Shown: piece by piece, positions 7,705-38,806 of the stretch | How positions within the stretch are numbered: position 1 is the stretch's first letter | Layout of the letters: the number at the start of each line of letters is the position of its first letter | Origin: a virus | Direction: 5' to 3' (one strand) | IMG/VR virus record: IMGVR_UViG_3300045988_164138 | Span: 1-42,735 of that record | DNA: 42,735 nt | Program-made: the position numbers and the translations under genes | Notes under the pieces: model-generated | What the model was told of the DNA's origin: nothing | The model's database searches: none | What the model saw: only the letters and a program-made list of their open reading frames with translations

Positions 7705-7725
7705 CGCACACTGGTCGCATGATTT

Positions 7726-7763
7726 GAATAGCGGGGGCCACAATACTGTGGCCCCCGCTATTC
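7726..7763 (+). terminator. perfect 17-bp hairpin
   Basis: gaatagcgggggccaca atac tgtggcccccgctattc, 22 nt after the stop at 7704. Confidence 0.6.
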
Positions 7764-7793
7764 AACCCAACGAAGAGAAGAGAGAAAACACGA

Positions 7794-8843: not shown

Positions 8844-9325
8844 TGCAGCGTGTGATGGCTGTTGACCCCGGCAAGTCAACAGGAATCGTCGTCGGAGAAT
8901 TCTATGACGATCGCGAATTCTCAATCATTCATGTTCAGCAATTCAAGTATGAGCATTGGACGGCTAGTGTCTACGATATTCTGGCTACACGAAATGAATT
9001 CGCCCCAGACATTGTCGTGTGCGAACAGTTCGATCTTCGACCGGGCAACAATTTTCTCGCAGACCTCACCCCAGTGAAAATCAACTCGGTACTGGAATGG
9101 GAGATCGGGGGCATCGTCTGGCAGACACCCGCAATGGCAAAAACCACCATGCCCGACCGTGTTTTGAAGTCTCTTGGTTTTTGGCCCACTGGGGCTACTG
9201 TGGGCCAGGCGGATGCGGACGACGCGCGTGATGCGGGACGGCATCTTTTCCTGTGGGCAGTCACTAAACGTCACGACAAGGCTGTGATCGCCCGCATCGT
9301 CGGAGACGACGTGGAGCGACGGTGA
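8843..9325 (+). CDS. RuvC-like Holliday junction resolvase
   Basis: MAVDPGKSTG (catalytic D), VCEQFD (E) and DADDARDA near the C-terminus. ATGA overlap with the upstream stop. Confidence 0.75.
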   Translation: MQRVMAVDPGKSTGIVVGEFYDDREFSIIHVQQFKYEHWTASVYDILATRNEFAPDIVVCEQFDLRPGNNFLADLTPVKINSVLEWEIGGIVWQTPAMAKTTMPDRVLKSLGFWPTGATVGQADADDARDAGRHLFLWAVTKRHDKAVIARIVGDDVERR

Positions 9326-9370
9326 ATGTTTCACGTGAAACACGAGGATGCGTGTTTCACGTGAAACATT
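9325..9370. repeat. 46-nt palindromic hairpin carrying two copies of GTTTCACGTGAAAC
   Basis: aatgtttcacgtgaaacacg aggatg cgtgtttcacgtgaaacatt forms 20-bp arms. Each arm contains the 14-bp self-palindrome (9328-9341 and 9354-9367). It starts at the last base of the RuvC stop codon. Confidence 0.85.
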
Positions 9371-9408
9371 ACTGCCCCCTACCAGACAAACGGTAGGGGG
9401 CAGTAATG
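9367..9408. terminator. bidirectional terminator hairpin at a convergent junction
   Basis: cattactgccccctacc agacaaac ggtagggggcagtaatg (17-bp stem) followed by tttt. It lies between plus gene end 9325 and minus gene end 9427. Confidence 0.7.
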
Positions 9409-10044: not shown

Positions 10045-10096
10045 ATATCTAATGTCCTCTTTGTCGCATTGTTTTGGCAGGGCTGCAATAGGAATT

Positions 10097-10148
10097 ATAT
10101 AACATTCCCCGCCTAACAATCGTCGTTGCTAGGCGGGGAATGTTATAT
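10097..10148. terminator. 18-bp hairpin between lysis-cassette genes
   Basis: atataacattccccgcct (16-nt loop) aggcggggaatgttatat. It shares the aacattcccc stem base with the hairpin at 16521. Confidence 0.55.
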
Positions 10149-10153
10149 TTTAG

Positions 10154-10548: not shown

Positions 10549-10558
10549 CACAACAAAA

Positions 10559-10601
10559 GCAAGTCTCCAGACGGTCAATGAAAGATCGTCTGGAGACTTG
10601 C
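10559..10601 (-). terminator. intrinsic terminator downstream of the endolysin gene
   Basis: gcaagtctccagacg / cgtctggagacttgc (15-bp stem), followed on the minus strand by ttttgtt. Confidence 0.7.
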
Positions 10602-10663
10602 TCTACCACTGTCACAGGAGGTCACGGAGAGGGAAGAGAGTGAAGCTCCCCGCATGTCTTACC

Positions 10664-16036: not shown

Positions 16037-16500
16037 CAGCAAATGAGTCCATAGCGAAGATCAAGCGCGATATTAGCCTCGCACAGTTGTGGCTTCCGAA
16101 GCCTGACGAGTGTGACATTGACGAAGCGCATATGGTCGCTCATCTGAAGTGGCACAATCAATATAATGGTACTGGAATTGACGTCACTGTAGAAAACGGC
16201 AACGACGACGCTATCAGTAAATGGGTCATCTGGGGCTGGCCACTGAGCGTCGTGGGCGTTTACCATGAAACAAGTGGCGAGAGCACGTCCAATCTTGCGC
16301 GTCATCTAGCACGACAGTGGACTACCGTAGAGTGTGACGCAATCGCCGCCCGTCAAATCCGAGAGATAAATAACACGATTTACTCGATCCTGAACTCGCC
16401 GTCGATCGACGTTCAGGATGATGCGCGTTCCGATCTCATGGGCGTCCTGGACGATATTGCTCGCGAGCACGGAGGAAACTACCAACGCCTGGGACTATAG
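16033..16500 (+). CDS. hypothetical protein (155 aa)
   Basis: ATGA overlap with the upstream gene. Last gene of the island. Confidence 0.55.
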   Translation: MTANESIAKIKRDISLAQLWLPKPDECDIDEAHMVAHLKWHNQYNGTGIDVTVENGNDDAISKWVIWGWPLSVVGVYHETSGESTSNLARHLARQWTTVECDAIAARQIREINNTIYSILNSPSIDVQDDARSDLMGVLDDIAREHGGNYQRLGL

Positions 16501-16520
16501 TCTCTTGCGTTGGGCGCAAA

Positions 16521-16563
16521 AACATTCCCCCTCACCGCGATTTCTGCGGTGAGGGGGAATGTT
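16521..16563. terminator. bidirectional terminator hairpin at the second convergent junction
   Basis: aacattccccctcaccgc gatttct gcggtgagggggaatgtt (18-bp stem). Confidence 0.7.
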
Positions 16564-16574
16564 TCACGTGAAAC
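16558..16574. repeat. third copy of AATGTTTCACGTGAAAC
   Basis: Identical 17-mer to 9325-9341. It ends 1 nt before the stop codon (16576-16578) of the minus-strand hydrolase gene. Confidence 0.85.
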
Positions 16575-26979: not shown

Positions 26980-27072
26980 CGATACCTCTCCGAAATCATG
27001 TGTAGCGAAAATGGTTCACGCCAATCTTTGTCTTGGCGTGAACCATTTTACACTATCCGATAGAAACGCGGC

Positions 27073-32556: not shown

Positions 32557-34164
32557 TTAGTTTATTGGTGTTTTGGTGCCGCCGGGCAGTTTAATGTTGC
32601 GCCTAACCCGGTTCTTTGTATTGGGTGCGTTATTAAGGCCCAGGTTGCTGCCATTGCCGTTATTGCCAGCATTGTTATTGGCGATGTTATAGGCGTTGTC
32701 ACCATCGGCGTCATTGTCCGTGTCACCGTTCTCGCCGTTCTCGTCCACATTCTCGTTATTCGTGGCGGCGAGAGCGCGATCAAGCAACGAAACTGCATTC
32801 TTTTTGCGATTCTCGGCGTTAATGTCTGCGAGATCATCCTCGGTGAGCCCAGCACGCCGCATAAGAGTCTGCGACTCCTGCAACGACGGGAACGCAGACA
32901 CCATTTTGACCGCGAAATCGGCTGCAGACGACGGCGAGGAATAGCGGGCGGGGGTCCACTTCACAGAAGTCTTCCACGACTCCTGCGGCGGCTCGTCAAG
33001 CTTGTCCCTGACCATAATAATGTTCTGCAGCGTGCGCCGCAACGGTGCAGTAAAAATACGCCACTGATACTCGGCTTCGTCCGCGAGCGCCGCCTCAGCA
33101 GCCTGCATCGCCTCAGCCGAGGCAGGGTTCTCCGCGAATACTCCGATCGCGGACTGAGGAAGATTTGTGGCCGCGCACAAATTCTGCGCCAGCTGCCGGT
33201 ACATTTCCAAGTGCGGGCTCATGGTCATTTGTGAGAATTGCCCAACCGACGGGATATCCCCGTTTTCATTCGGCTCCAAAACTTGGACGCGTGCCATGAT
33301 TGCGGACCACCTGTCTTGGCCGGCAAAATCTGCTCTTTCCGCACCGAGCACGTACCGCTGTGGTGAGGAGAAGAATTCTGCGGACGTTTCTGCGCGGACC
33401 ATTGTCCTCACCGCCGCGTCCGTGAGGTACCTTACTTCACGGGTGATTCGTGAATGCCCCAACGGCCTGTTCAATTGTGGGTCGTAGCAGAGTGCTTCGA
33501 CGAAAATGCGGTTGGGCGTGTCTCCTAGTTTTTCAGCTTTCCATCCGCCGCCGTTCTCTTTGGCGTCGATTCGCCAAATGGCGGTGGGGGTGTGCATGAT
33601 GGCGCCGGCCGGCTGCCCGTATTTGTCGGTCTGATCGATCGTGAGGGCGGCCTCGATTATGCGACGCCTAGTGTCCCAAAGAGCGGCAGACCATTCCGCG
33701 TCACGGGCCTGCACCACAACAGGAGGCTCACCGATGGTCTCATCCCCCCGCGTCACTGTGAGCAATGAGAAAGAATGCTTGTAGGCAGACGTGATCGCCT
33801 GGGCGAGATCAAGATCATAATTGTTTGCAGATAGTATTTCGTTTGCTTCGAAAGCGTCCGGGGCACCGTTCAGGGAATAGCCTTCGAACACATGCCTCCT
33901 GGAGAGCATGGTGACGACTTTCTGAGGCCACCCCAACGCGGCCTTGGTGCGCGTCATTTGTGGCGGAATACTGATCCCCAAATCCTGGAAAGCGCGGTGA
34001 CCGTCATAGTAGACGGAGAGCAGTTTGTTTTTGTTTGAGTGCTGCTGCCATTTCTGCCACAGTTGCAGAAATGTTGCATGGTCTTCACCGGGGAGTCCGG
34101 AAATGCGGGTCGGGGCCGGCGTAGCATTAACGAGTCGTCCATCGTCAGGATAAATTTCAGTCAT
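32557..34164 (-). CDS. portal protein
   Basis: 535 aa. ATGA overlap with the TerL stop. SPP1-type order: portal, MuF, scaffold, capsid. Confidence 0.85.
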   Translation of the reverse strand: MTEIYPDDGRLVNATPAPTRISGLPGEDHATFLQLWQKWQQHSNKNKLLSVYYDGHRAFQDLGISIPPQMTRTKAALGWPQKVVTMLSRRHVFEGYSLNGAPDAFEANEILSANNYDLDLAQAITSAYKHSFSLLTVTRGDETIGEPPVVVQARDAEWSAALWDTRRRIIEAALTIDQTDKYGQPAGAIMHTPTAIWRIDAKENGGGWKAEKLGDTPNRIFVEALCYDPQLNRPLGHSRITREVRYLTDAAVRTMVRAETSAEFFSSPQRYVLGAERADFAGQDRWSAIMARVQVLEPNENGDIPSVGQFSQMTMSPHLEMYRQLAQNLCAATNLPQSAIGVFAENPASAEAMQAAEAALADEAEYQWRIFTAPLRRTLQNIIMVRDKLDEPPQESWKTSVKWTPARYSSPSSAADFAVKMVSAFPSLQESQTLMRRAGLTEDDLADINAENRKKNAVSLLDRALAATNNENVDENGENGDTDNDADGDNAYNIANNNAGNNGNGSNLGLNNAPNTKNRVRRNIKLPGGTKTPIN

Positions 34165-35654
34165 AGGAACAATACTCCGCCGCCACGATCATTTCTACTA
34201 TTGGCGTTTTCGATTTTATCATAAGGCTTGTAACGGGGTCGTCTTTTTGTTGTGCGTGCCGCCCACATTGCGAGCGTGCATGCTTCCAGGCCGGCTACCG
34301 TGGCTCCGGGCGGGGCTTGTAGCGCCCATCCTCCTGATGTTCCGATTGGGCGCGGCGTCGCAGACGCGGCCTCGGTCCTCAATTGCATGTCGTCTAGGTG
34401 GGTGATTGTGTTTTCGCGTAGTGAGGCGTCTAACATGCTGTAGGCGTCTATGATTTGCGTGATTGTGGGGGTGATGATGACTTGGGGGCGTACTCCGATG
34501 GCGCGTAGTCTTTCGATTGTGTCGCCGGCACCGTATTTTCCGTCTACGATGATTTGCGCCCATCTGTCTTTGGTGTCCGCAATGTAGTCGATTATCCATT
34601 GTGTACCTTCGTTCATGCGGCGGACGCCCTGGTGGGTGCATAGTTCGACGTGCGTGGGCGTGTTTGCCTTGTGTCCCGCTCGGGCTAGGGCGCATGTTGA
34701 TCCGTCGGGTGCGAATCTGATTGCGGCACACCATCGCATGCCGGTCGGCGTGTTTTCTGGCCGTATTGTGGCGGTGTTCCAGGCGGCGGGGTCGATTGCG
34801 AGCCTGTCGTTGGCTCGGTCCCATATTCCGAGGCCTTCACGGCGGAATGATTCTTCTCCGAGTTGTCTGCGCATTCTTAGAATGGCGGATTCGGGTGTGC
34901 GGCGCGGGTATGATGGGTTTGCTTTTTCCCATTGTTTCCGGTCGTCGCTGTTAGCGTCGTAGTCGGCGGCTAGTTCGAGGTAGAGGCCGTCTTTTATTTC
35001 GCCTTGTAGGGCGAGGTTGCGGAATTCGCTGAATGCTTCTGATGGGTCTTTTGGTTTTGGTGGTGTTCCTATTTTGATGATGAGCGGATCCGGGGCGGTG
35101 TTTGTGGCGGGGATCATGTCGTCTAGTGCGGCTGCGCCCAGGATCTGGGCTTCGTCGAAGAGGATCATGTCTACGCCGTGGAATCCTCGTCCGAATCCGC
35201 CTTCGCGGGCGCCGAAGAGGATTCGTGATCCGTTGTTGAAGAGGATGGCTTGTTGCCCGTTCGCTTGCCGTATTTTATTCACGTACGGTGCGATGTTGGG
35301 GATTTGTGCCATTCCTTTCATGTCGTTGAATGTTTCGTCTGCTGTGCGTGTGCGGTGTGCGGTCCAGAGTACGAAGTAGTTTGGGTGGATGGTGGCGAGT
35401 GCGAATGTGAGGCCGCCGATTGTGTATGTTTTGCCGACCTGTCGTGGGATGCTGGCTTGGATTCCGTCGATGCTGGCGGCGTAGTGGCCGTCGTTTCGTT
35501 TTGCGAGGATTGCTTTGAGCCAGTCTTGTTGCCATGTGTCGAGGGGGTATTGCATTTCTTGGAGGCGGTGTTTGACTGGCGGCCAGGCGGTGTGTGTGAT
35601 GTTTTCTGGGAGGGTGAGGTGGGCGGCGATTTCGCTGAGGTGTTTTTCGCTCAT
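34161..35654 (-). CDS. terL: terminase large subunit
   Basis: Walker A PRQVGKTY, Walker B MILFDEAQ, and a C-terminal nuclease region. Confidence 0.9.
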   Translation of the reverse strand: MSEKHLSEIAAHLTLPENITHTAWPPVKHRLQEMQYPLDTWQQDWLKAILAKRNDGHYAASIDGIQASIPRQVGKTYTIGGLTFALATIHPNYFVLWTAHRTRTADETFNDMKGMAQIPNIAPYVNKIRQANGQQAILFNNGSRILFGAREGGFGRGFHGVDMILFDEAQILGAAALDDMIPATNTAPDPLIIKIGTPPKPKDPSEAFSEFRNLALQGEIKDGLYLELAADYDANSDDRKQWEKANPSYPRRTPESAILRMRRQLGEESFRREGLGIWDRANDRLAIDPAAWNTATIRPENTPTGMRWCAAIRFAPDGSTCALARAGHKANTPTHVELCTHQGVRRMNEGTQWIIDYIADTKDRWAQIIVDGKYGAGDTIERLRAIGVRPQVIITPTITQIIDAYSMLDASLRENTITHLDDMQLRTEAASATPRPIGTSGGWALQAPPGATVAGLEACTLAMWAARTTKRRPRYKPYDKIENANSRNDRGGGVLFL

Positions 35655-35655
35655 T

Positions 35656-35937
35656 TTAGATGCCGTCCCAGGTTTGTGTTTCGTTTGAAATGTCGGTGGG
35701 GTGTGTGGTGGTGTTTTCGTTTTGTGTGGTGGCGAGTTGGTCTGTGATTTGTATGAGTTGTGCGGTGAGTTTTGTGAGTGCTGTGTCGCCTGTTCTGGGG
35801 TCGTCTATGACGGTGGCGATTTTGTGTGCGAGTGCTTGGCGGATGAGTGTTGGGTTGTTTGTGTTTGTGGCGTCTGTGATGGGTGTGGGGCTGTTGGGTT
35901 CGTATATGGTGATTGTGGTATTTGTGTGGGTTGTCAT
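35656..35937 (-). CDS. hypothetical protein (possible small terminase subunit, by position only)
   Basis: 93 aa. T/N-rich ends and a helical core. RBS agaggg. It stops 1 nt before the terL start. Confidence 0.35.
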   Translation of the reverse strand: MTTHTNTTITIYEPNSPTPITDATNTNNPTLIRQALAHKIATVIDDPRTGDTALTKLTAQLIQITDQLATTQNENTTTHPTDISNETQTWDGI

Positions 35938-35979
35938 ACCCTCTATTATATGCTGTGATACTCCTTACGTCTGTCAGAG

Positions 35980-36075
35980 TTTTCCACAGGGTTTTCCACA
36001 GGGTGGGGAGTTTTCCACATGATGGCGGTCACATTGTGATCTGGGTTACTGGAGTTATCCACAAGGTTTTCCACA
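35980..36075 (+). promoter_or_regulatory. cluster of five same-orientation DnaA-box-like 9-mers, TT(T/A)TCCACA
   Basis: ttttccaca at 35980-35988, 35992-36000, 36011-36019 and 36067-36075. The exact consensus ttatccaca is at 36055-36063. Confidence 0.6.
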
Positions 36076-36259
36076 AGCAGGGAGGGATGGGCAGACCTTC
36101 GGGGTGTTCGCGGCCGGATGGGGGAGGGGGGGGTGGCCCCCATCACACAATTTGTGTGGTGTGCGTCTCGTTTCGCTCCGTTCCCTGCCTTGTTTTGTGG
36201 TGTGAGTCCCACTTTAAGGAATCCCTTACTGTTGTGGGGCCCCCCTTCGTTCGTCTCGT

Positions 36260-36590
36260 TTTGTTGCCATGGTTTTTTTGAACACCATTGTTTGGTTTGT
36301 GCCTTTGAATTTTTTTGCATGTTTTTGTAACATTTCTTTTGTTTTTATGCGTTTTTGCGTGTTTGTGCGTTTGTGCGTTGTGTTGCCTTTGTGGCATGCG
36401 TTGGCACCATGCATGGTGCATGGTATTGGTATGCATGTCATGCATCATGTCATCATCACATGTTCATCATCATGTTGATCATGTTCATTGTCGATCATGA
36501 TTGATCATCATCATGTTCGTTGTTCATTGTTATTGATTGTTGATTGAACGTTGATCATGTTGATCATGATCGTTCGTTGGTTGTGTGATC
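36260..36590. repeat. T-rich/AT-rich tract with GCGTTT iterons, a 14-bp palindrome and a GATC/TGATCA cluster
   Basis: gcgtttttgcgtgtttgtgcgtttgtgcgttgtg. caccatgcatggtg at 36405-36418. Seven GATC between 36477 and 36590, including gttgatcatg at 36474, 36550 and 36559. Confidence 0.7.
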
Positions 36591-36948
36591 GTGAACGAGT
36601 GAGAGTAGATGAGTGGATGGTGTCCGTCTCTCGTCTGTGTGGTGTGTGGAATGGCGGTTGGTGTGTGTTGCTGCTGGCCTGCGCTGTCCGGTGTGTGCGG
36701 CCCGGCCCGCACTCCACCTCCTCGGTGCGCGGTGAGTACTGCGTCATGTCGTGTACTGTTCCTTGCCGGGTGTGTGGTGCAGTGCGGGTGAGTGTCTGTC
36801 TGTGCTGTTCGTGTGATGGGGTATCCTTCGTCTGCTCTCCCCTGGTCGTGGTGGTGGGTGGGGCTATCGTGGATGGGTGGGCGGCATTGTGGTGGTGGGT
36901 GGCATAGCATTGAAGGGCGGGTGCTGTGATGCTGTCCCTCCCGTCTGC

Positions 36949-36987
36949 GTGTTGGCGTCCCCCTTGTTCGGTGTTGGCGTCCCCCTT
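36949..36987 (+). repeat. 17-bp direct repeat gtgttggcgtccccctt x2 (22-bp period)
   Basis: Copies at 36949-36965 and 36971-36987. Confidence 0.85.
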
Positions 36988-37358
36988 CCGTTTGCGTGGT
37001 GGTCCTGTTGAATGGCGGGGGTGGCGTGTGTTGTGGTGTTCCGTGTTCGGATTGGGTCTTTCCCTTCATGTTGTCCCTGGTCCTCTCGTATTGTCCTCGC
37101 TCCTCTTCCTCTTGTGTTGCTGCGTCTGTTGTGGGTGTGGGGGGGGTGCGGGCGGGGGTTTACCTCGTTGTGAAACTGTGGCTTGCTTCTCCTCTCTCTT
37201 TGTGTTCACTGTCACAGTATTGTTGGTTAGGGTGGTGTGTTTGTGGCAGGGTTGTGTTATTGTGGAATGGCGGTGGTGTGGTGAGGGTGTGTGGTCTCGT
37301 TATCTGTTTTCCTGTTTCTTTTCTTCTTCTTTCTTTTCTTCTTCTTCCTTTTCTTGTT

Positions 37359-37415
37359 GGTGTTCGGGGTAGTGCGCGCGCAGCCATGCGAGCACGCACG
37401 TTATCCCCGAACACC
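37359..37415. ncRNA. structured hairpin element, copy 1 (11-bp outer stem plus conserved 32-nt core)
   Basis: ggtgttcgggg [tagtgcgcgcgcagccatgcgagcacgcacgt tat] ccccgaacacc. On the plus strand it is preceded by a roughly 45-nt polypyrimidine tract. Confidence 0.5.
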
Positions 37416-37508
37416 ATGTGTTCCCTTGTTGTTTTGTCTTCTCTTCTTCCTGTTCCTTGATCTTCTTCCTCGTCCGCTTTTCCTTTTGTTGGAATGGCGG
37501 TGGGTGTT

Positions 37509-37853
37509 TCACCATGTGTCAGAGTGTTCGGTGGGCATGACGGCGACGGGTAGTCTGTCTCGCTCGTCCTCGTTTTTCTGGTAGTGGCGTGCTCTTCCTT
37601 TGCCTCCTCGTCCGTTGCCTCGTCTGCTGTTGCATTTGGCGCAGAGGACTCGTCCGTTGTCCGGGTGATTGGTTCCGCCTAACGAGGCTGGGATTATGTG
37701 GTCCGCTTCGGCGCTGTTTGGTTTGCGTTCCCCGTTATTGTTGTATTGGAGTTTTACTCCGCATGCTGGGCAGTGTGTGATGCCTATTTGTTGTGCTCTG
37801 GCGAGTACTTGTTTTCTGAATTGTTTGTGTTCGCGTGTGCTTGTTCTGCTCAT
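37509..37853 (-). CDS. HNH endonuclease
   Basis: CPACG...ADHIIPASLGGTNHPDNGRVLCAKCN (HNH with two CxxC pairs). RBS agagagaagagaac. Confidence 0.85.
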   Translation of the reverse strand: MSRTSTREHKQFRKQVLARAQQIGITHCPACGVKLQYNNNGERKPNSAEADHIIPASLGGTNHPDNGRVLCAKCNSRRGNGRGGKGRARHYQKNEDERDRLPVAVMPTEHSDTW

Positions 37854-38016
37854 CGTGTGTTCTCTTCTCTCTTTGCTTTTCTCTCTCGTGTTTGTGTTAG
37901 GTGGTGGCGCGTCGCAGCGTCAGCGAGACGAGCGCCTCCACCGTCTAACACTACCCTCCCTGTTCTCTTCTCGTCTTTCTTCTCGTCGCCTTTCTTCTCT
38001 TCTCGTCTTGTGGGTT

Positions 38017-38076
38017 GGCGTGCGTTGTGTAGTGCGCGCGCAGCCATGCGAGCACGCACGTAACACAGCGCACGCC
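38017..38076. ncRNA. structured hairpin element, copy 2 (14-bp outer stem, same 32-nt core)
   Basis: ggcgtgcgttgtgt [agtgcgcgcgcagccatgcgagcacgcacgt a] acacagcgcacgcc. The outer stem sequence differs from copy 1 but remains complementary (one G-T pair). Confidence 0.5.
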
Positions 38077-38230
38077 CCCCTTGTGTTCTGGCTTGTCTTA
38101 TTGGTCGCATGTTGTGTGCCTACCATCACACGTAATGCTTGTTGCATCCATCGCAACACGGCATCTATTGCTTACACCACACACTGTTCGTTGTTAACGA
38201 TCACCACGCTCACCATTGAACACTAATTAC

Positions 38231-38239: not shown

Positions 38240-38252
38240 CACGTTCCCTAAA

Positions 38253-38305
38253 TAGACACTGTCTAACAAAAATAGACACTGTCTAACACGACTAGACAGT
38301 GTCTA
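38253..38305. promoter_or_regulatory. three 13-bp palindromic operator-like sites, TAGACAnTGTCTA, spaced exactly 20 bp apart
   Basis: Sites at 38253-38265 and 38273-38285 (tagacactgtcta) and 38293-38305 (tagacagtgtcta). The first two lie inside an identical 19-mer, aaatagacactgtctaaca. Confidence 0.65.
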
Positions 38306-38312
38306 ATTCTAG

Positions 38313-38328
38313 TACTCTTTTAAGAGTA
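38313..38328. promoter_or_regulatory. 16-bp palindrome tactctt-tt-aagagta next to the operator array
   Basis: 7-bp arms separated by a 2-nt centre. Confidence 0.4.
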
Positions 38329-38759
38329 TAGGTTGAGCCCAACACAGTGGCGAGCTCTTCGAAAACACCCTGCGGCGCCGACGCTCGCTTGCGTCGCTAG
38401 GGCTCCTCAGCGGCTGCGCCGCAGATCGTCTTCGACGATTCGTCTACTCGAGTGTAGCATACGGGACCAAAGTCACCGCAACAAACACTGCCAACAAAGC
38501 AACTGCAACAGAGACTATTCGTTGCAATCACAAGGAACACACTGACACAAACCCTTGCTACAAGGGCAGAAAGTGTGACGACACGCACCAACATTGTACT
38601 AACACAAACGGGTATTTTCGCCCTAGAACCCCGGTTGCTAGCAAACAACCCACATGCATGGAAAGTTAATGGAAGGTTAACGGAAACTGTGAAAGATCGG
38701 CGTGTTGGCGACACCGCACACCACCATCACACACCGCCCTTCTACAGCAGGCGCACCAC

Positions 38760-38806
38760 GACGACAAAAGCCCCACCTCCTCGTCGAAGATGGGGCCTTT
38801 GTCGTC
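38760..38806. terminator. 16-bp hairpin downstream of the minus-strand cassette
   Basis: gacgacaaaagcccca (15-nt loop) tggggcctttgtcgtc, with one mismatch. Confidence 0.55.

What the first reader, a model, noticed from the sequence alone, without database searches (positions are those of the whole stretch)
37320..38076. Two copies of a hairpin element with an identical core and compensatory outer stems bracket the HNH gene
- The 32-nt core TAGTGCGCGCGCAGCCATGCGAGCACGCACGT is identical at 37370-37401 and 38030-38061. It can itself fold into an imperfect GC hairpin.
- In copy 1 the core is enclosed by ggtgttcgggg/ccccgaacacc.
- In copy 2 it is enclosed by a different but still complementary pair, ggcgtgcgttgtgt/acacagcgcacgcc.
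- Different sequence with maintained pairing argues for selection on structure.
- On the plus strand each copy is preceded by a 45-60 nt polypyrimidine tract (a GA-rich tract after the hairpin in the late-transcript sense).
- The pair flanks the HNH ORF at a 660-bp distance.
- Possible roles: RNA stability or processing elements framing the HNH message, protein-binding sites, H-DNA-forming tract plus cruciform, or the ends of a mobile HNH cassette.
Basis: seen in the sequence. Interest (0 to 1): 0.65.

Follow-up and report, generated by a model that had tools for sequence, protein, structure and literature searches.

The report
Twin conserved hairpins flanking phage HNH gene
Two copies of a long GC-rich hairpin with the same 32-base core sit on either side of the packaging-nuclease (HNH) gene of an abundant uncultured phage; they are conserved, base-paired signals, probably marking the boundaries of that gene's message, but their exact job and working strand remain unproven.

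Summary
The 32-nt core is identical at 37370-37401 and 38030-38061. Each copy sits inside its own outer stem, giving hairpins at 37359-37415 (D, downstream of HNH) and 38017-38076 (U, upstream).

- **Distribution:** about 90 related metagenomic phage genomes carry both copies around HNH, never more than two per contig. Bacterial genomes, Rfam and more distant phages have none.
- **Structure:** U's outer stem co-varies (7 pairs with double changes, 0/500 shuffles).
- **Sequence constraint:** the irregular upper helix is invariant in about 170 copies. An ordinary terminator hairpin in the same genomes drifts freely.
- **Loop:** only the loop varies, and it tends to be the same in both copies of a genome (27/40 against 8.4 expected).
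- **Rejected:** these are not cos (the physical end maps to 36094-36104), not cassette ends (no genome lacks HNH or a copy), and not canonical terminators in the HNH sense (no U tract).

My best reading is a factor-recognised boundary or processing stem-loop of the HNH transcript (confidence about 0.3). Wobble statistics lean towards the opposite strand, so plus-strand RNA terminators and single-stranded-DNA signals stay live rivals. I rate it a new variant of a known kind, of moderate interest.

The parts
38017..38076 (.). Outer stem 38017-38029 / 38064-38076 (13 bp), asymmetric internal loop, core 38030-38061.
   Evidence: Sequence and folds on both strands. Present in every relative. Outer stem co-varies. 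CM score 89.3 bits.
37359..37415 (.). Outer stem 37359-37369 / 37405-37415 (11 bp), core 37370-37401.
   Evidence: The outer stem and the flanking ACACAAT are essentially invariant in 42 IMG/VR relatives, with identity 0.97-1.00. A CM built only from U copies finds it at 63.8 bits.
38030..38061 (.). 32-nt core of U. HNH sense: ACGUGCGUGC-UC-GCA-NNGC-UGC-GCGCGCACUA, that is an 8-bp helix with one U.G, a 2-nt bulge, a 3-bp helix and a 4-nt loop.
   Evidence: It varies only in the loop triplet, apart from one compensatory C-G to U-A change (L032).
37370..37401 (.). 32-nt core of D, identical to the core of U.
   Evidence: In 45 further metagenome copies anchored on the D arms, all variation lies in 3 loop positions, apart from one T>C.
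37509..37853 (-). HNH endonuclease gene (114 aa) bracketed by the hairpins; terminase-associated type.
   Evidence: Pfam HNH/HNH_5 and PHROG HNH families. Orthologues are the last gene before the right genome end in Cutibacterium, Propionibacterium, Arthrobacter and Rothia phages.
37894..37951 (.). Third hairpin, about 40 nt upstream of the HNH start and 100% invariant in 33 relatives. Probably part of the same control region.
   Evidence: Identity 1.00. Folds at -30.8 / -31.4 kcal/mol. Its 5' end, GTGTTAGAC, repeats an operator half-site.
37296..37358 (.). Hypervariable purine-rich (HNH sense) / pyrimidine-rich (plus strand) spacer next to D. Similar spacers lie at 37416-37487, 37856-37893 and 37955-38015.
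   Evidence: 83-92% pyrimidine on the plus strand. Identity to relatives is only 0.36-0.58, with many indels.
38250..38353 (-). Conserved promoter-like site (TCGCCA-17-TATACT, and TAGAAT) followed by three TAGACAnTGTCTA operators. Candidate start of the HNH-sense transcript that would contain U.
   Evidence: The 38301-38460 part of this region is 0.95-1.00 conserved; the operator stretch 38261-38300 scores about 0.48 because the operator copy number varies.

Best explanation
U and D are two copies of one cis-acting stem-loop signal. It works as folded single-stranded nucleic acid and is read by a conserved trans-acting factor through its irregular, sequence-invariant upper helix. That helix is 8 bp with a fixed U.G, a UC bulge, 3 bp, and an asymmetric internal loop below it. 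The loop and, in U, the lower stem need only the right shape.

The mechanism I think most likely:
1. Both copies are transcribed in the HNH sense, from the operator-controlled promoter near 38.3 kb.
2. They act as boundary elements of the HNH message. These would be U-tract-less 3'-end-forming or double-strand-nuclease processing sites that leave protective hairpins, as T7 RNase III sites do.
3. The potentially toxic packaging nuclease thereby gets a discrete, stabilised and separately controlled mRNA.
4. Transcription does not run on through 1.3 kb of non-coding DNA and cos into the terminase operon, which has its own leaderless promoter.

Status of each step:
- **Shown:** two copies per genome, the fold, covariation, sequence invariance of the core, concerted loop evolution, and a position flanking HNH and away from cos.
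- **Inferred:** transcription in the HNH sense, the existence and identity of the factor, and cleavage or termination.
For: - **Real and non-random.**
- **Conserved islands.** The elements score 0.93-1.00 identity inside spacers at 0.36-0.58. They are present in all 44 IMG/VR relatives and in 45 metagenome contigs.
- **Base pairing is selected.** 96.3% of cells are paired, 7 pairs show double changes in 32 cells, and 0/500 shuffles reach this. One compensatory change lies in the upper helix (L032).
- **Sequence, not just shape, is selected in the core.** It is invariant outside the loop in about 170 copies. The terminator hairpin at 38760-38806 in the same genomes changes freely by compensation.
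- **Geometry.** An 11-13 bp lower stem, an internal loop and an 11-bp upper stem give about two helical turns with a bulge or loop. That is the architecture of single-cut RNase III sites, which leave protective 3' hairpins (PMC1540722).
- **All neighbouring genes are on the minus strand.** These are HNH, TerS, TerL and two small upstream ORFs.
- **A promoter lies upstream of U.** A conserved promoter-plus-operator block sits about 240 nt upstream in that sense.
- **No competing terminator.** No canonical terminator exists on that strand between 38273 and 35500.
- **House style.** Long hairpins that mostly lack U tracts mark the intergenic regions elsewhere in this phage.
- **TerS has its own promoter.** An invariant TATAAT lies exactly 7 nt before its ATG, so HNH can be a separate unit.
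- **A sharp composition edge.** A stretch with only 4-10% U (HNH sense) begins about 60 nt upstream of U.
Against: - **No transcript data.** The working strand is not established.
- **Wobble asymmetry points the other way.** In U's variable stem, non-Watson-Crick cells are C.A in the HNH sense (G.U on the plus strand) 43 times, against 1 U.G. The polymorphism spectrum of the region is only about 1.3-fold biased, so mutation bias does not explain this. It favours plus-strand folding.
- **Free energy does not discriminate.** Mean MFE is -40.3 against -39.7 kcal/mol.
- **RNase III would not explain the invariance.** It needs no invariant 28-nt sequence. By E. coli rules, G-C pairs next to the cleavage site are antideterminants, and these helices are G-C rich.
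- **No U tract in the HNH sense.** Classical intrinsic termination is therefore excluded. Termination without a U tract is disputed for actinobacterial RNA polymerase (own knowledge).
- **No candidate RNA-binding factor was found**. The basic C-terminal tail of HNH is shared with relatives that lack the hairpins.
- **Unexplained asymmetry.** The model does not say why D's lower stem is invariant while U's is free.
Confidence: 0.3

Rival explanations
1. The hairpins work on plus-strand RNA, antisense to HNH, as intrinsic terminators or insulators. D would end a plus-sense non-coding RNA made from the right-end non-coding region: a CU-rich, anti-Shine-Dalgarno-like body plus a terminator hairpin, like a Gram-positive sRNA. 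U would stop read-through or an antisense HNH RNA before it reaches the operator region.
For: - Wobble asymmetry of 43:1 favours plus-strand pairing in U's lower stem, and mutation bias does not explain it.
- On the plus strand each hairpin is followed by a relatively conserved U-rich flank: AUUGUGUC after D and CUUGUGUUUU after U in relatives.
- On the plus strand each is preceded by a 45-60 nt pyrimidine tract.
- A weak TTGCTG-17-TAGGGT motif lies in a conserved block upstream of D.
- Abundant non-coding RNAs from the right genome end are known in Cluster A mycobacteriophages (PMC5712189).
Against: - There is no plus-strand gene or convincing promoter. The scan finds none, and the A of the candidate -10 is G in several relatives.
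- U-richness of the tails is close to the 40-47% T background of this strand.
- The terminator scan did not call either hairpin.
- On this strand the upper helix carries a conserved C.A mismatch.
- A simple terminator would not need an invariant 28-nt helix.
Confidence: 0.2
2. The hairpins work at the DNA level. They extrude on single-stranded plus-strand DNA, or as cruciforms, and serve as recognition sites for replication: primosome or primase loading on the lagging-strand template downstream of an origin near cos, like ssi signals or mitochondrial OriL. Alternatively they act as supercoil-absorbing non-B DNA together with the flanking homopurine-homopyrimidine tracts.
For: - G.T is the tolerated mismatch on the plus strand.
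- Loop variants are mostly C/T on the plus strand: CC, TC, CT, TT.
- The plus strand is depleted of A and, outside the spacers, of C, as expected for a strand often single-stranded.
- A cluster of 5-9 DnaA-box-like repeats and an AT-rich block lie 0.8-1.4 kb from D.
- The phage encodes a DUF3987 primase/helicase-like protein, an SNF2 helicase and an AAA_24 recombinase-like protein.
- Both copies have the same orientation.
- The core and U's arms are alternating purine-pyrimidine, which is Z-DNA prone.
- Sequence-specific recognition of a DNA hairpin stem with bulges, and indifference to the loop, is typical of ssDNA-hairpin enzymes (own knowledge).
Against: - Such signals are not established in cos siphoviruses.
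- GC skew does not place a bidirectional origin at 36 kb.
- The skew gradient is opposite to that expected if lagging-strand synthesis started at U (inference).
- No biochemical evidence exists.
- Cruciform selection alone cannot give a 43:1 wobble asymmetry.
Confidence: 0.2
3. The hairpins are nascent-RNA recruitment sites for processive antitermination or elongation control, like lambda nut boxB, HK022 put or HIV TAR. They would let RNA polymerase cross the long untranslated, C-rich, Rho-prone leader between HNH and the terminase genes.
For: - Two identical copies lie in one transcript orientation, downstream of a regulated promoter.
- An irregular helix with a pyrimidine bulge and a wobble is the kind of target arginine-rich peptides or polymerase read (own knowledge).
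- About 1.3 kb of untranslated RNA with C>G follows D.
- Loop alleles co-vary between the two copies.
Against: - TerS has its own conserved leaderless promoter, so read-through is not required.
- In boxB the loop is the recognition element; here the loop is the only free part.
- No boxA and no N- or Q-like protein were detected.
- No Rfam match.
- No terminators lie downstream in this sense.
Confidence: 0.1
4. The two cores are ends or recombination sites of a mobile or excisable HNH cassette: a homing endonuclease cassette, IS200/IS605-like subterminal hairpins, or attC- or lox-like sites.
For: - They are direct repeats bracketing a nuclease gene.
- Loop identity within a genome (27/40; rare variants shared) resembles the requirement for identical crossover regions, or reflects gene conversion.
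- One D5'-core-U3' hybrid exists.
Against: - HNH and both copies are present in every relative.
- There are zero deletion hybrids.
- The single hybrid lies at a contig end and is explained by assembly across a 32-nt repeat.
- Each site keeps its own complementary arms, so neither is a recombinant hybrid.
- No transposase, integrase or recombinase is encoded.
- No copies occur elsewhere in the phage or in bacterial genomes.
- The HNH is orthologous to the packaging HNH at the same position in distant phages that lack the hairpins.
Confidence: 0.03
5. The hairpins are part of cos, or are terminase or HNH recognition sites for genome cutting and packaging.
For: In related phages the genome end lies 50-170 bp after the HNH gene, which in this window is where D sits.
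Against: - The physical end maps elsewhere. At least 8 independent contigs start at TGCCCATCCC (window 36093), one with an Illumina adapter fused to it. Others end at ...GCGAACA (36105), which implies an 11-nt stagger, CCCCGAAGGTC.
- D and U are therefore 1.26 and 1.91 kb inside the right end.
- Candidate terminase or DnaA repeats lie next to cos instead.
Confidence: 0.02

Closest known systems
Bacteriophage T7 RNase III processing signals (R1.1 type)
   Same: - Irregular hairpins of about two helical turns, with an internal loop or bulge.
- They recur with shared sequence between genes of one phage, bracket individual cistrons, and leave protective 3' hairpins (PMC1540722; the repetition in T7 is from own knowledge).
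   Different: - Here there are only two copies.
- 28 nt of helix is invariant, far more than RNase III needs.
- The helices flanking the internal loop are G-C rich, which is an antideterminant in E. coli.
- Cleavage is untested, and the host enzyme and even the transcribed strand are unknown.
Intrinsic terminators, including U-tract-less 'I-shaped' actinobacterial terminators
   Same: A stable GC-rich hairpin after a gene (D). This phage uses long hairpins, mostly without U tracts, in other intergenic regions.
   Different: - No U tract in the gene sense, and only a borderline one in the antisense.
- The stem is twice the usual length, with an internal loop.
- The sequence is invariant, whereas a real terminator in the same genomes co-varies freely.
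- U does not follow a gene.
Lambda nutL/nutR boxB, HK022 putL/putR, HIV TAR
   Same: Two near-identical RNA hairpins per phage that act in cis on transcription. The irregular helix would be the protein or polymerase target, and the variants are lineage-specific.
   Different: - Both copies lie in one operon, 660 nt apart.
- The loop is free to vary, whereas in boxB the loop is essential.
- No boxA and no N-like gene.
- No downstream terminators, and the terminase operon has its own promoter.
IS200/IS605 subterminal hairpins, integron attC sites, and T4-type promoter-stem-loop (PeSL) cassettes
   Same: - Directly repeated imperfect hairpins bracket a single gene.
- The stems carry extrahelical bases, and the terminal loop is variable.
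- There is evidence of sequence exchange between the copies.
   Different: - No transposase or integrase.
- No presence/absence polymorphism.
- No further copies anywhere.
- The conserved part is the inner helix, not the outer boxes.
- The gene is a core packaging gene.
Single-strand initiation signals (G4/phiX-type ssi, plasmid sso, mitochondrial OriL)
   Same: An orientation-specific DNA hairpin with a conserved stem, on the strand that carries the deamination-like skew, located near a candidate origin.
   Different: Not known in cos siphoviruses. No priming evidence. The skew gradient does not fit a start at U.

Membership tests
Canonical intrinsic (Rho-independent) terminator | GC-rich hairpin | tested here: met
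Canonical intrinsic (Rho-independent) terminator | U tract immediately 3' of the stem on the transcribed strand | tested here: not met
   In the HNH sense the tails are AACAAGAAAAGG and AACCCACAAGAC, with no U. The scan calls neither hairpin on either strand. The plus-sense tails, AUUGUGUC and CUUGUGUUUU, are borderline and near the strand's background T content.
Canonical intrinsic (Rho-independent) terminator | Termination of RNA polymerase | not testable with these tools
   Needs in vitro transcription or Term-seq.
RNase III processing signal (T7 R1.1 type) | About two turns (about 22 bp) of double helix | tested here: met
   11-13 bp plus 11 bp.
RNase III processing signal (T7 R1.1 type) | Internal loop or bulge restricting cleavage to one strand | tested here: met
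   An asymmetric internal loop (4-5 nt / 2 nt) and a 2-nt bulge are conserved in all copies.
RNase III processing signal (T7 R1.1 type) | No inhibitory G-C pairs in the proximal or distal boxes | tested here: inconclusive
   The helices next to the internal loop are G-C rich (GUGCG/CGCAC and GGGG/CCCC). By E. coli rules these can block binding or cleavage. The rules for the unknown actinobacterial host are not known.
RNase III processing signal (T7 R1.1 type) | Cleavage by RNase III | not testable with these tools
   -
nut/put-type antitermination RNA | Match to a described family or a boxA-boxB arrangement with a cognate N- or Q-like protein | tested here: not met
   No Rfam match even at E<=1. 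No such protein by PHROGs or Pfam. The loop is the variable part.
Mobile element ends (IS200/IS605, homing cassette, attC) | Associated transposase or integrase | tested here: not met
Mobile element ends (IS200/IS605, homing cassette, attC) | Presence/absence polymorphism or additional copies | tested here: not met
   Both copies and HNH are in all relatives. There are 0 deletion hybrids, only 2 copies per genome, and only 7 isolated single matches in bacterial genome contigs, none in an actinobacterial host-like context or in tandem.
cos / terminase recognition site | Located at the physical genome end | tested here: not met
   The ends map to 36093/36105. The hairpins are 1.26 and 1.91 kb away.
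CRISPR repeat mimic (solitary repeat unit) | Sequence matches repeats of a host CRISPR array | tested here: not met
   The core pattern gives only 7 isolated single hits in unrelated GC-rich genomes and no arrays.
Palindromic double-stranded DNA operator | Conserved half-sites with a free centre, and no need for intrastrand pairing | tested here: inconclusive
   The conserved inner arms and free centre fit. The covariation of U's outer arms requires intrastrand pairing, which an operator does not explain.

The most novel reading that the evidence does not exclude
The twin hairpins are a previously undescribed class of phage cis-signal, read on single-stranded plus-strand nucleic acid by a dedicated and highly conserved factor. 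One version is OriL- or ssi-like priming signals beside a DnaA-box origin at cos. Another is a polymerase-modifying RNA of actinobacterial phages. Either way, the two copies would be kept identical by gene conversion because both must fit the same factor, and they would mark the edge of an extraordinary 3.5-kb strand-biased domain (4-10% A on the plus strand) that spans HNH, cos and the terminase genes.
Probability: 0.15. Interest if true: 0.75.

Novelty: new variant of a known kind. Interest (0 to 1): 0.5.

Why it matters
**A ready-made mutational map.** This phage lineage is very abundant in public metagenomes: at least 139 HNH clusters at 90% identity, with many complete genomes of about 43 kb. 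It has no cultured representative. Its packaging-nuclease gene sits alone in about 3 kb of non-coding DNA that is packed with conserved signals. The twin hairpins are the clearest of these. Helix sequence is fixed, the loop is free, one lower stem is free and the other is fixed. That predicts a specific binding partner.

**Gene expression.** If the hairpins delimit or regulate the HNH message, they show how a cos phage keeps a potentially toxic nuclease under separate control from the terminase genes.

**Replication.** If instead they act on the plus strand or on DNA, they would point to the replication mechanism of this phage and explain the extreme strand bias around cos.

**For annotators.** Public gene calls extend the HNH ORF to 175-200 aa through the T-poor spacers. 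These calls are artefacts.

Tried and rejected
- **Known phage.** No megablast hit in 50,697 phage records. The nearest TerL is about 50% identical.
- **Rfam.** Nothing at gathering score over the whole window. Only chance-level hits at E<=1 in 35.0-39.5 kb. No tRNA or tmRNA.
- **cos hypothesis.** Rejected by mapping the contig ends.
- **Mobile cassette.** Rejected.
- **Host or prophage copy, or CRISPR-repeat mimic.** Only chance single hits in 185k genomes.
- **Third or degenerate copies.** A covariance model with filters off finds only the two.
- **Analogous hairpin pairs around HNH in distant relatives** (Rothia Spartoi, Arthrobacter MrSmee, P. freudenreichii B22, four IMG/VR contigs). None.
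- **Deciding the strand by free energy.** No difference.
- **Explaining the C.A excess by mutation bias.** The polymorphism spectrum is only about 1.3-fold biased.
- **HNH's arginine-rich tail as a lineage-specific hairpin binder.** The tail is shared with relatives that lack the hairpins.
- **An N-terminally extended HNH translated through the hairpin region.** The U-to-ATG distance varies from 192 to 234 nt in all three phases, so there is no conserved frame.
- **A plus-sense promoter upstream of D.** Only a weak motif whose key A is not conserved.
- **attC-like R boxes, and a boxA-like reading of CCGCCAUUCC.** Judged by eye; not convincing.
- **Transcript evidence from Logan contigs.** Contigs cross both hairpins and carry no library information. 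The window's own HNH is not on record.
- **A draft report** was rejected by the schema. It carried no results.
Full report
**1. What is in the sequence**

The 32-nt core TAGTGCGCGCGCAGCCATGCGAGCACGCACGT occurs exactly twice in the 42,735-bp window, at 37370-37401 and 38030-38061. No further match appears at up to 3 mismatches, and none appears in 100 shuffles.

Each core lies inside its own inverted repeat:
- GGTGTTCGGGG / CCCCGAACACC, at 37359-37369 and 37405-37415.
- GGCGTGCGTTGTG / CACAGCGCACGCC, at 38017-38029 and 38064-38076.

Each element folds as one long hairpin on either strand, at -37.7 to -45.6 kcal/mol and z = -4.4 to -6.1. Both also form independently in a fold of the whole 761-nt HNH region.

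In the sense of the HNH gene the architecture is:
- a lower stem of 11 or 13 bp;
- an asymmetric internal loop (AUAAC or UUAC opposite UA);
- an 8-bp helix containing one U.G;
- a 2-nt UC bulge;
- a 3-bp helix;
- a 4-nt loop, NNGC.

They fill every spacer around HNH, not only the one before each hairpin.

**2. Genomic context**

The window is a complete, circularly permuted cos-siphovirus genome.

*Genes.*
- Minus strand: HNH (37853..37509), TerS (35937..35656, phrog_1459), TerL (35654..34161) and the structural genes down to 16576.
- Plus strand: replication-type genes, namely DUF3987, an SNF2 helicase, AAA_24 and a dCTP-deaminase-like protein.
- No integrase or recombinase was detected.

*Relatives.* The nearest isolates are Arthrobacter, Rothia and Propionibacterium phages, with TerL about 50% identical. 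In these, and in Cutibacterium phages, the orthologous HNH is the last gene, 50-170 bp from the right genome end. That fits the known association of HNH genes with cos and terminase (PMC3592412).

*Is D the cos site?* That layout raised the possibility, but it is not.
- At least eight independent contigs begin exactly at TGCCCATCCC (window 36093).
- One of them has an Illumina adapter fused directly to that base.
- Fold-back chimeras start at the complement of CCCCGAAGGTC.
- Other contigs end at ...GCGAACA (36105).
- The cohesive end is therefore the 11-nt stagger at 36094-36104. D lies 1.26 kb and U 1.91 kb inside the right end.

*The non-coding setting.* Between HNH and TerS lie 1.4 kb with no conserved reading frame, full of indels among relatives.

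*TerS promoter.* TerS carries an invariant TATAAT exactly 7 nt before its ATG. The spacer is variable and often not SD-like, which marks a leaderless promoter.

*Candidate HNH-sense promoter.* About 240 nt upstream of U, in the HNH sense, lies a 95-100% conserved block. It holds a promoter-like site and one to three TAGACAnTGTCTA operators.

**3. Comparative evidence**

*Distribution.*
- A search with the HNH protein found 44 IMG/VR contigs of about 43 kb with HNH 88-96% identical.
- The protein database holds at least 139 clusters at 89-96% identity, all metagenomic.
- Every relative whose locus covers the region has both hairpins, 632-688 bp apart.
- A pattern search gives at most two copies per contig, and only in this lineage.
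- The 185,579 bacterial and archaeal genomes give seven isolated chance-like hits.
- A covariance model built from U copies finds U (89.3 bits) and D (63.8 bits) in the window and nothing else above 24 bits.
- More distant phages have no comparable pair.

*Conservation.* In a 33-genome alignment the hairpins score 0.93-1.00 identity. The flanking spacers score 0.36-0.58.

**4. What is constrained**

- **(a) U's lower stem is constrained in structure only.** Among 40 distinct copies, 96.3% of cells pair. Six of its 13 pairs, and 7 of all 24, show changes on both sides in 32 cells. None of 500 shuffles reaches these values.
- **(b) D's lower stem and its flank ACACAAT are essentially invariant**.
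- **(c) The upper helix, bulge, wobble and internal loop are invariant in about 170 copies.** The exceptions are one compensatory C-G to U-A pair (L032) and rare single changes. This exceeds what background similarity would give. The ordinary terminator hairpin after the upstream gene (38760-38806) changes freely by compensation, or is replaced, in the same genomes.
- **(d) Only the loop triplet varies.** There are at least 10 alleles. It is the same in U and D of one genome in 27 of 40 cases, against 8.4 +/- 2.5 expected (0 of 10,000 permutations). Rare alleles (CTGGGC, CCGGGC) are shared by both copies of the same contig.

So the two cores evolve in concert, through gene conversion or a shared constraint. 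The helix is under sequence-specific purifying selection. That pattern argues for a trans-acting reader of the irregular helix that ignores the loop.

**5. Which strand?**

This is unresolved.

*For the HNH sense:*
- All flanking genes, and the only convincing promoter, are on that strand.
- The fixed non-canonical pair in the upper helix is a U.G there. On the plus strand it is a C.A mismatch.
- A stretch with only 4-10% U begins about 60 nt upstream of U. It runs through HNH, the spacers, cos, TerS and the start of TerL.

*For the plus strand:*
- In U's variable stem the non-Watson-Crick cells are C.A or A.C in the HNH sense 43 times and U.G once. On the plus strand those 43 are G.U.
- The local polymorphism spectrum is only about 1.3-fold biased in the direction that would create C.A.

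*Neutral:* free energies are equal, at -40.3 against -39.7 kcal/mol.

**6. Mechanism**

*Excluded or unlikely:*
- cos (section 2).
- A mobile cassette: there is no polymorphism, no deletion hybrids, and the single hybrid sits at a contig end.
- A CRISPR-repeat mimic.
- A classical terminator in the gene sense, since there is no U tract.

*My preferred model (about 0.3).* A factor-recognised boundary element of the HNH transcription unit.
- The two-turn helix with an internal loop and bulge is the architecture of single-cut RNase III sites, which leave protective 3' hairpins (PMC1540722).
- T7 repeats such sites between cistrons (own knowledge).
- This phage elsewhere uses long hairpins, mostly without U tracts, between genes.
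- Since TerS has its own promoter, isolating the HNH message makes sense.

*Weaknesses of the preferred model.*
- RNase III does not need an invariant sequence.
- The G-C-rich flanks would be antideterminants in E. coli.
- The wobble asymmetry points the other way.
- There are no RNA data.

*Rivals.*
- Plus-sense terminators or sRNA 3' ends (0.2). The CU-rich body plus hairpin plus U-rich tail resembles an sRNA. Cluster A mycobacteriophages make abundant right-end non-coding RNAs (PMC5712189).
- Plus-strand ssDNA or non-B DNA signals near a candidate origin (0.2).
- nut/put/TAR-like elongation control (0.1).

**7. Comparison and novelty**

No Rfam family matches. No defining set of features of any family I considered is fully met (see the membership table). 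It works most like T7-type processing signals or hairpin terminators, but three traits set it apart:
- an invariant helix with a free loop;
- one free and one fixed lower stem;
- concerted evolution of exactly two copies.

I class it as a new variant of a known kind: phage cis-acting stem-loop signals. It is of moderate interest. Interest would rise if the plus-strand or DNA reading proves right.

Noticed in passing
window 36094-36104 (minus strand CCCCGAAGGTC); left end starts at 36093: The physical genome ends (cos) can be read from public contigs. At least 8 contigs start at TGCCCATCCC, one (L128) with the Illumina PE adapter ...CTGAACCGCTCTTCCGATCT fused to it. Fold-back chimeras occur (L120, L168). 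Other contigs end at ...GCGAACA. Together these imply an 11-nt cohesive end, 1.4 kb after HNH rather than the 50-170 bp seen in related phages.
   Followed up: yes
window 35979-36075: Five same-orientation repeats TGTGGAWAAC lie between cos and TerS (0.12 expected). On the plus strand they read TTWTCCACA, the DnaA-box consensus. Relatives have 5-9 copies. They may be an origin, terminase small-subunit sites or late-activator sites.
   Followed up: partly
window 35937-35953: An invariant TATAAT lies exactly 7 nt before the TerS ATG. The 7-nt spacer is variable and often not Shine-Dalgarno-like. This looks like a leaderless late promoter of the actinobacterial type.
   Followed up: partly
window 38253-38305 and 38325-38353: Three 13-bp palindromes TAGACAnTGTCTA, 20 bp apart (0.01 expected), lie directly downstream of a promoter-like TCGCCA-17-TATACT / TAGAAT. 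Relatives have 1-3 copies. The adjoining block 38301-38460 is 95-100% conserved and contains a 30-nt inverted repeat.
   Followed up: partly
window 37894-37951: A third hairpin, about 40 nt upstream of the HNH start, is 100% identical in 33 relatives. Its 5' end, GTGTTAGAC, repeats an operator half-site.
   Followed up: partly
window ~34500-38140: Extreme strand bias. The plus strand has only 4-10% A (minus-sense RNA 4-10% U) across HNH, the spacers, cos, TerS and the start of TerL. This biases even amino-acid composition: TerS is Thr-rich. There is a sharp edge about 60 nt upstream of hairpin U, where A jumps to 30%. Between 38100 and 38800 the bias is reversed.
   Followed up: partly
window 36648-36657, 37009-37018, 37264-37273, 37491-37500 (minus strand); genome-wide: The motif CCGCCATTCC occurs three times exactly and once nearly in the non-coding right end. 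Genome-wide it occurs 24 times at up to 1 mismatch, against 4.6 expected, with strand orientation that tracks GC skew. In about 12 relatives it abuts U's 3' arm. To the right of U it lies on the other strand. It may be a polar, Chi-like or protein-binding motif.
   Followed up: partly
window 36440-36580: An AT-richer, well-conserved block of CATGATCA / ATGATCAAC repeats lies in the non-coding right end. It may be an unwinding element or iterons.
   Followed up: no
window 7725-7764, 9320-9375, 10096-10149, 10553-10607, 16500-16560, 27008-27049, 38760-38806: Many long (17-22 bp), nearly perfect intergenic hairpins, most without U tracts. They appear to be this phage's usual terminator or insulator style. 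The one at 38760-38806 co-varies freely among relatives.
   Followed up: partly
window 9329-9340, 9355-9366, 16562-16573: The palindrome TTTCACGTGAAA occurs three times (0.13 expected), each inside or next to a long intergenic hairpin. GGGGAATGTT recurs in the stems at 10096-10149 and 16500-16560.
   Followed up: no
HNH homologues P0001-P0120: Public gene calls give this HNH 138-200 aa instead of 114. ORF finders run on through the stop-codon-free, T-poor spacer to a GTG in or near hairpin U. The distance varies in all three phases, so the extension is an artefact.
   Followed up: yes
contig ends of L014, L037, L042, L043: Several public assemblies break, or are chimeric, exactly inside the 32-nt core. 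The repeat is longer than common k-mer sizes.
   Followed up: yes
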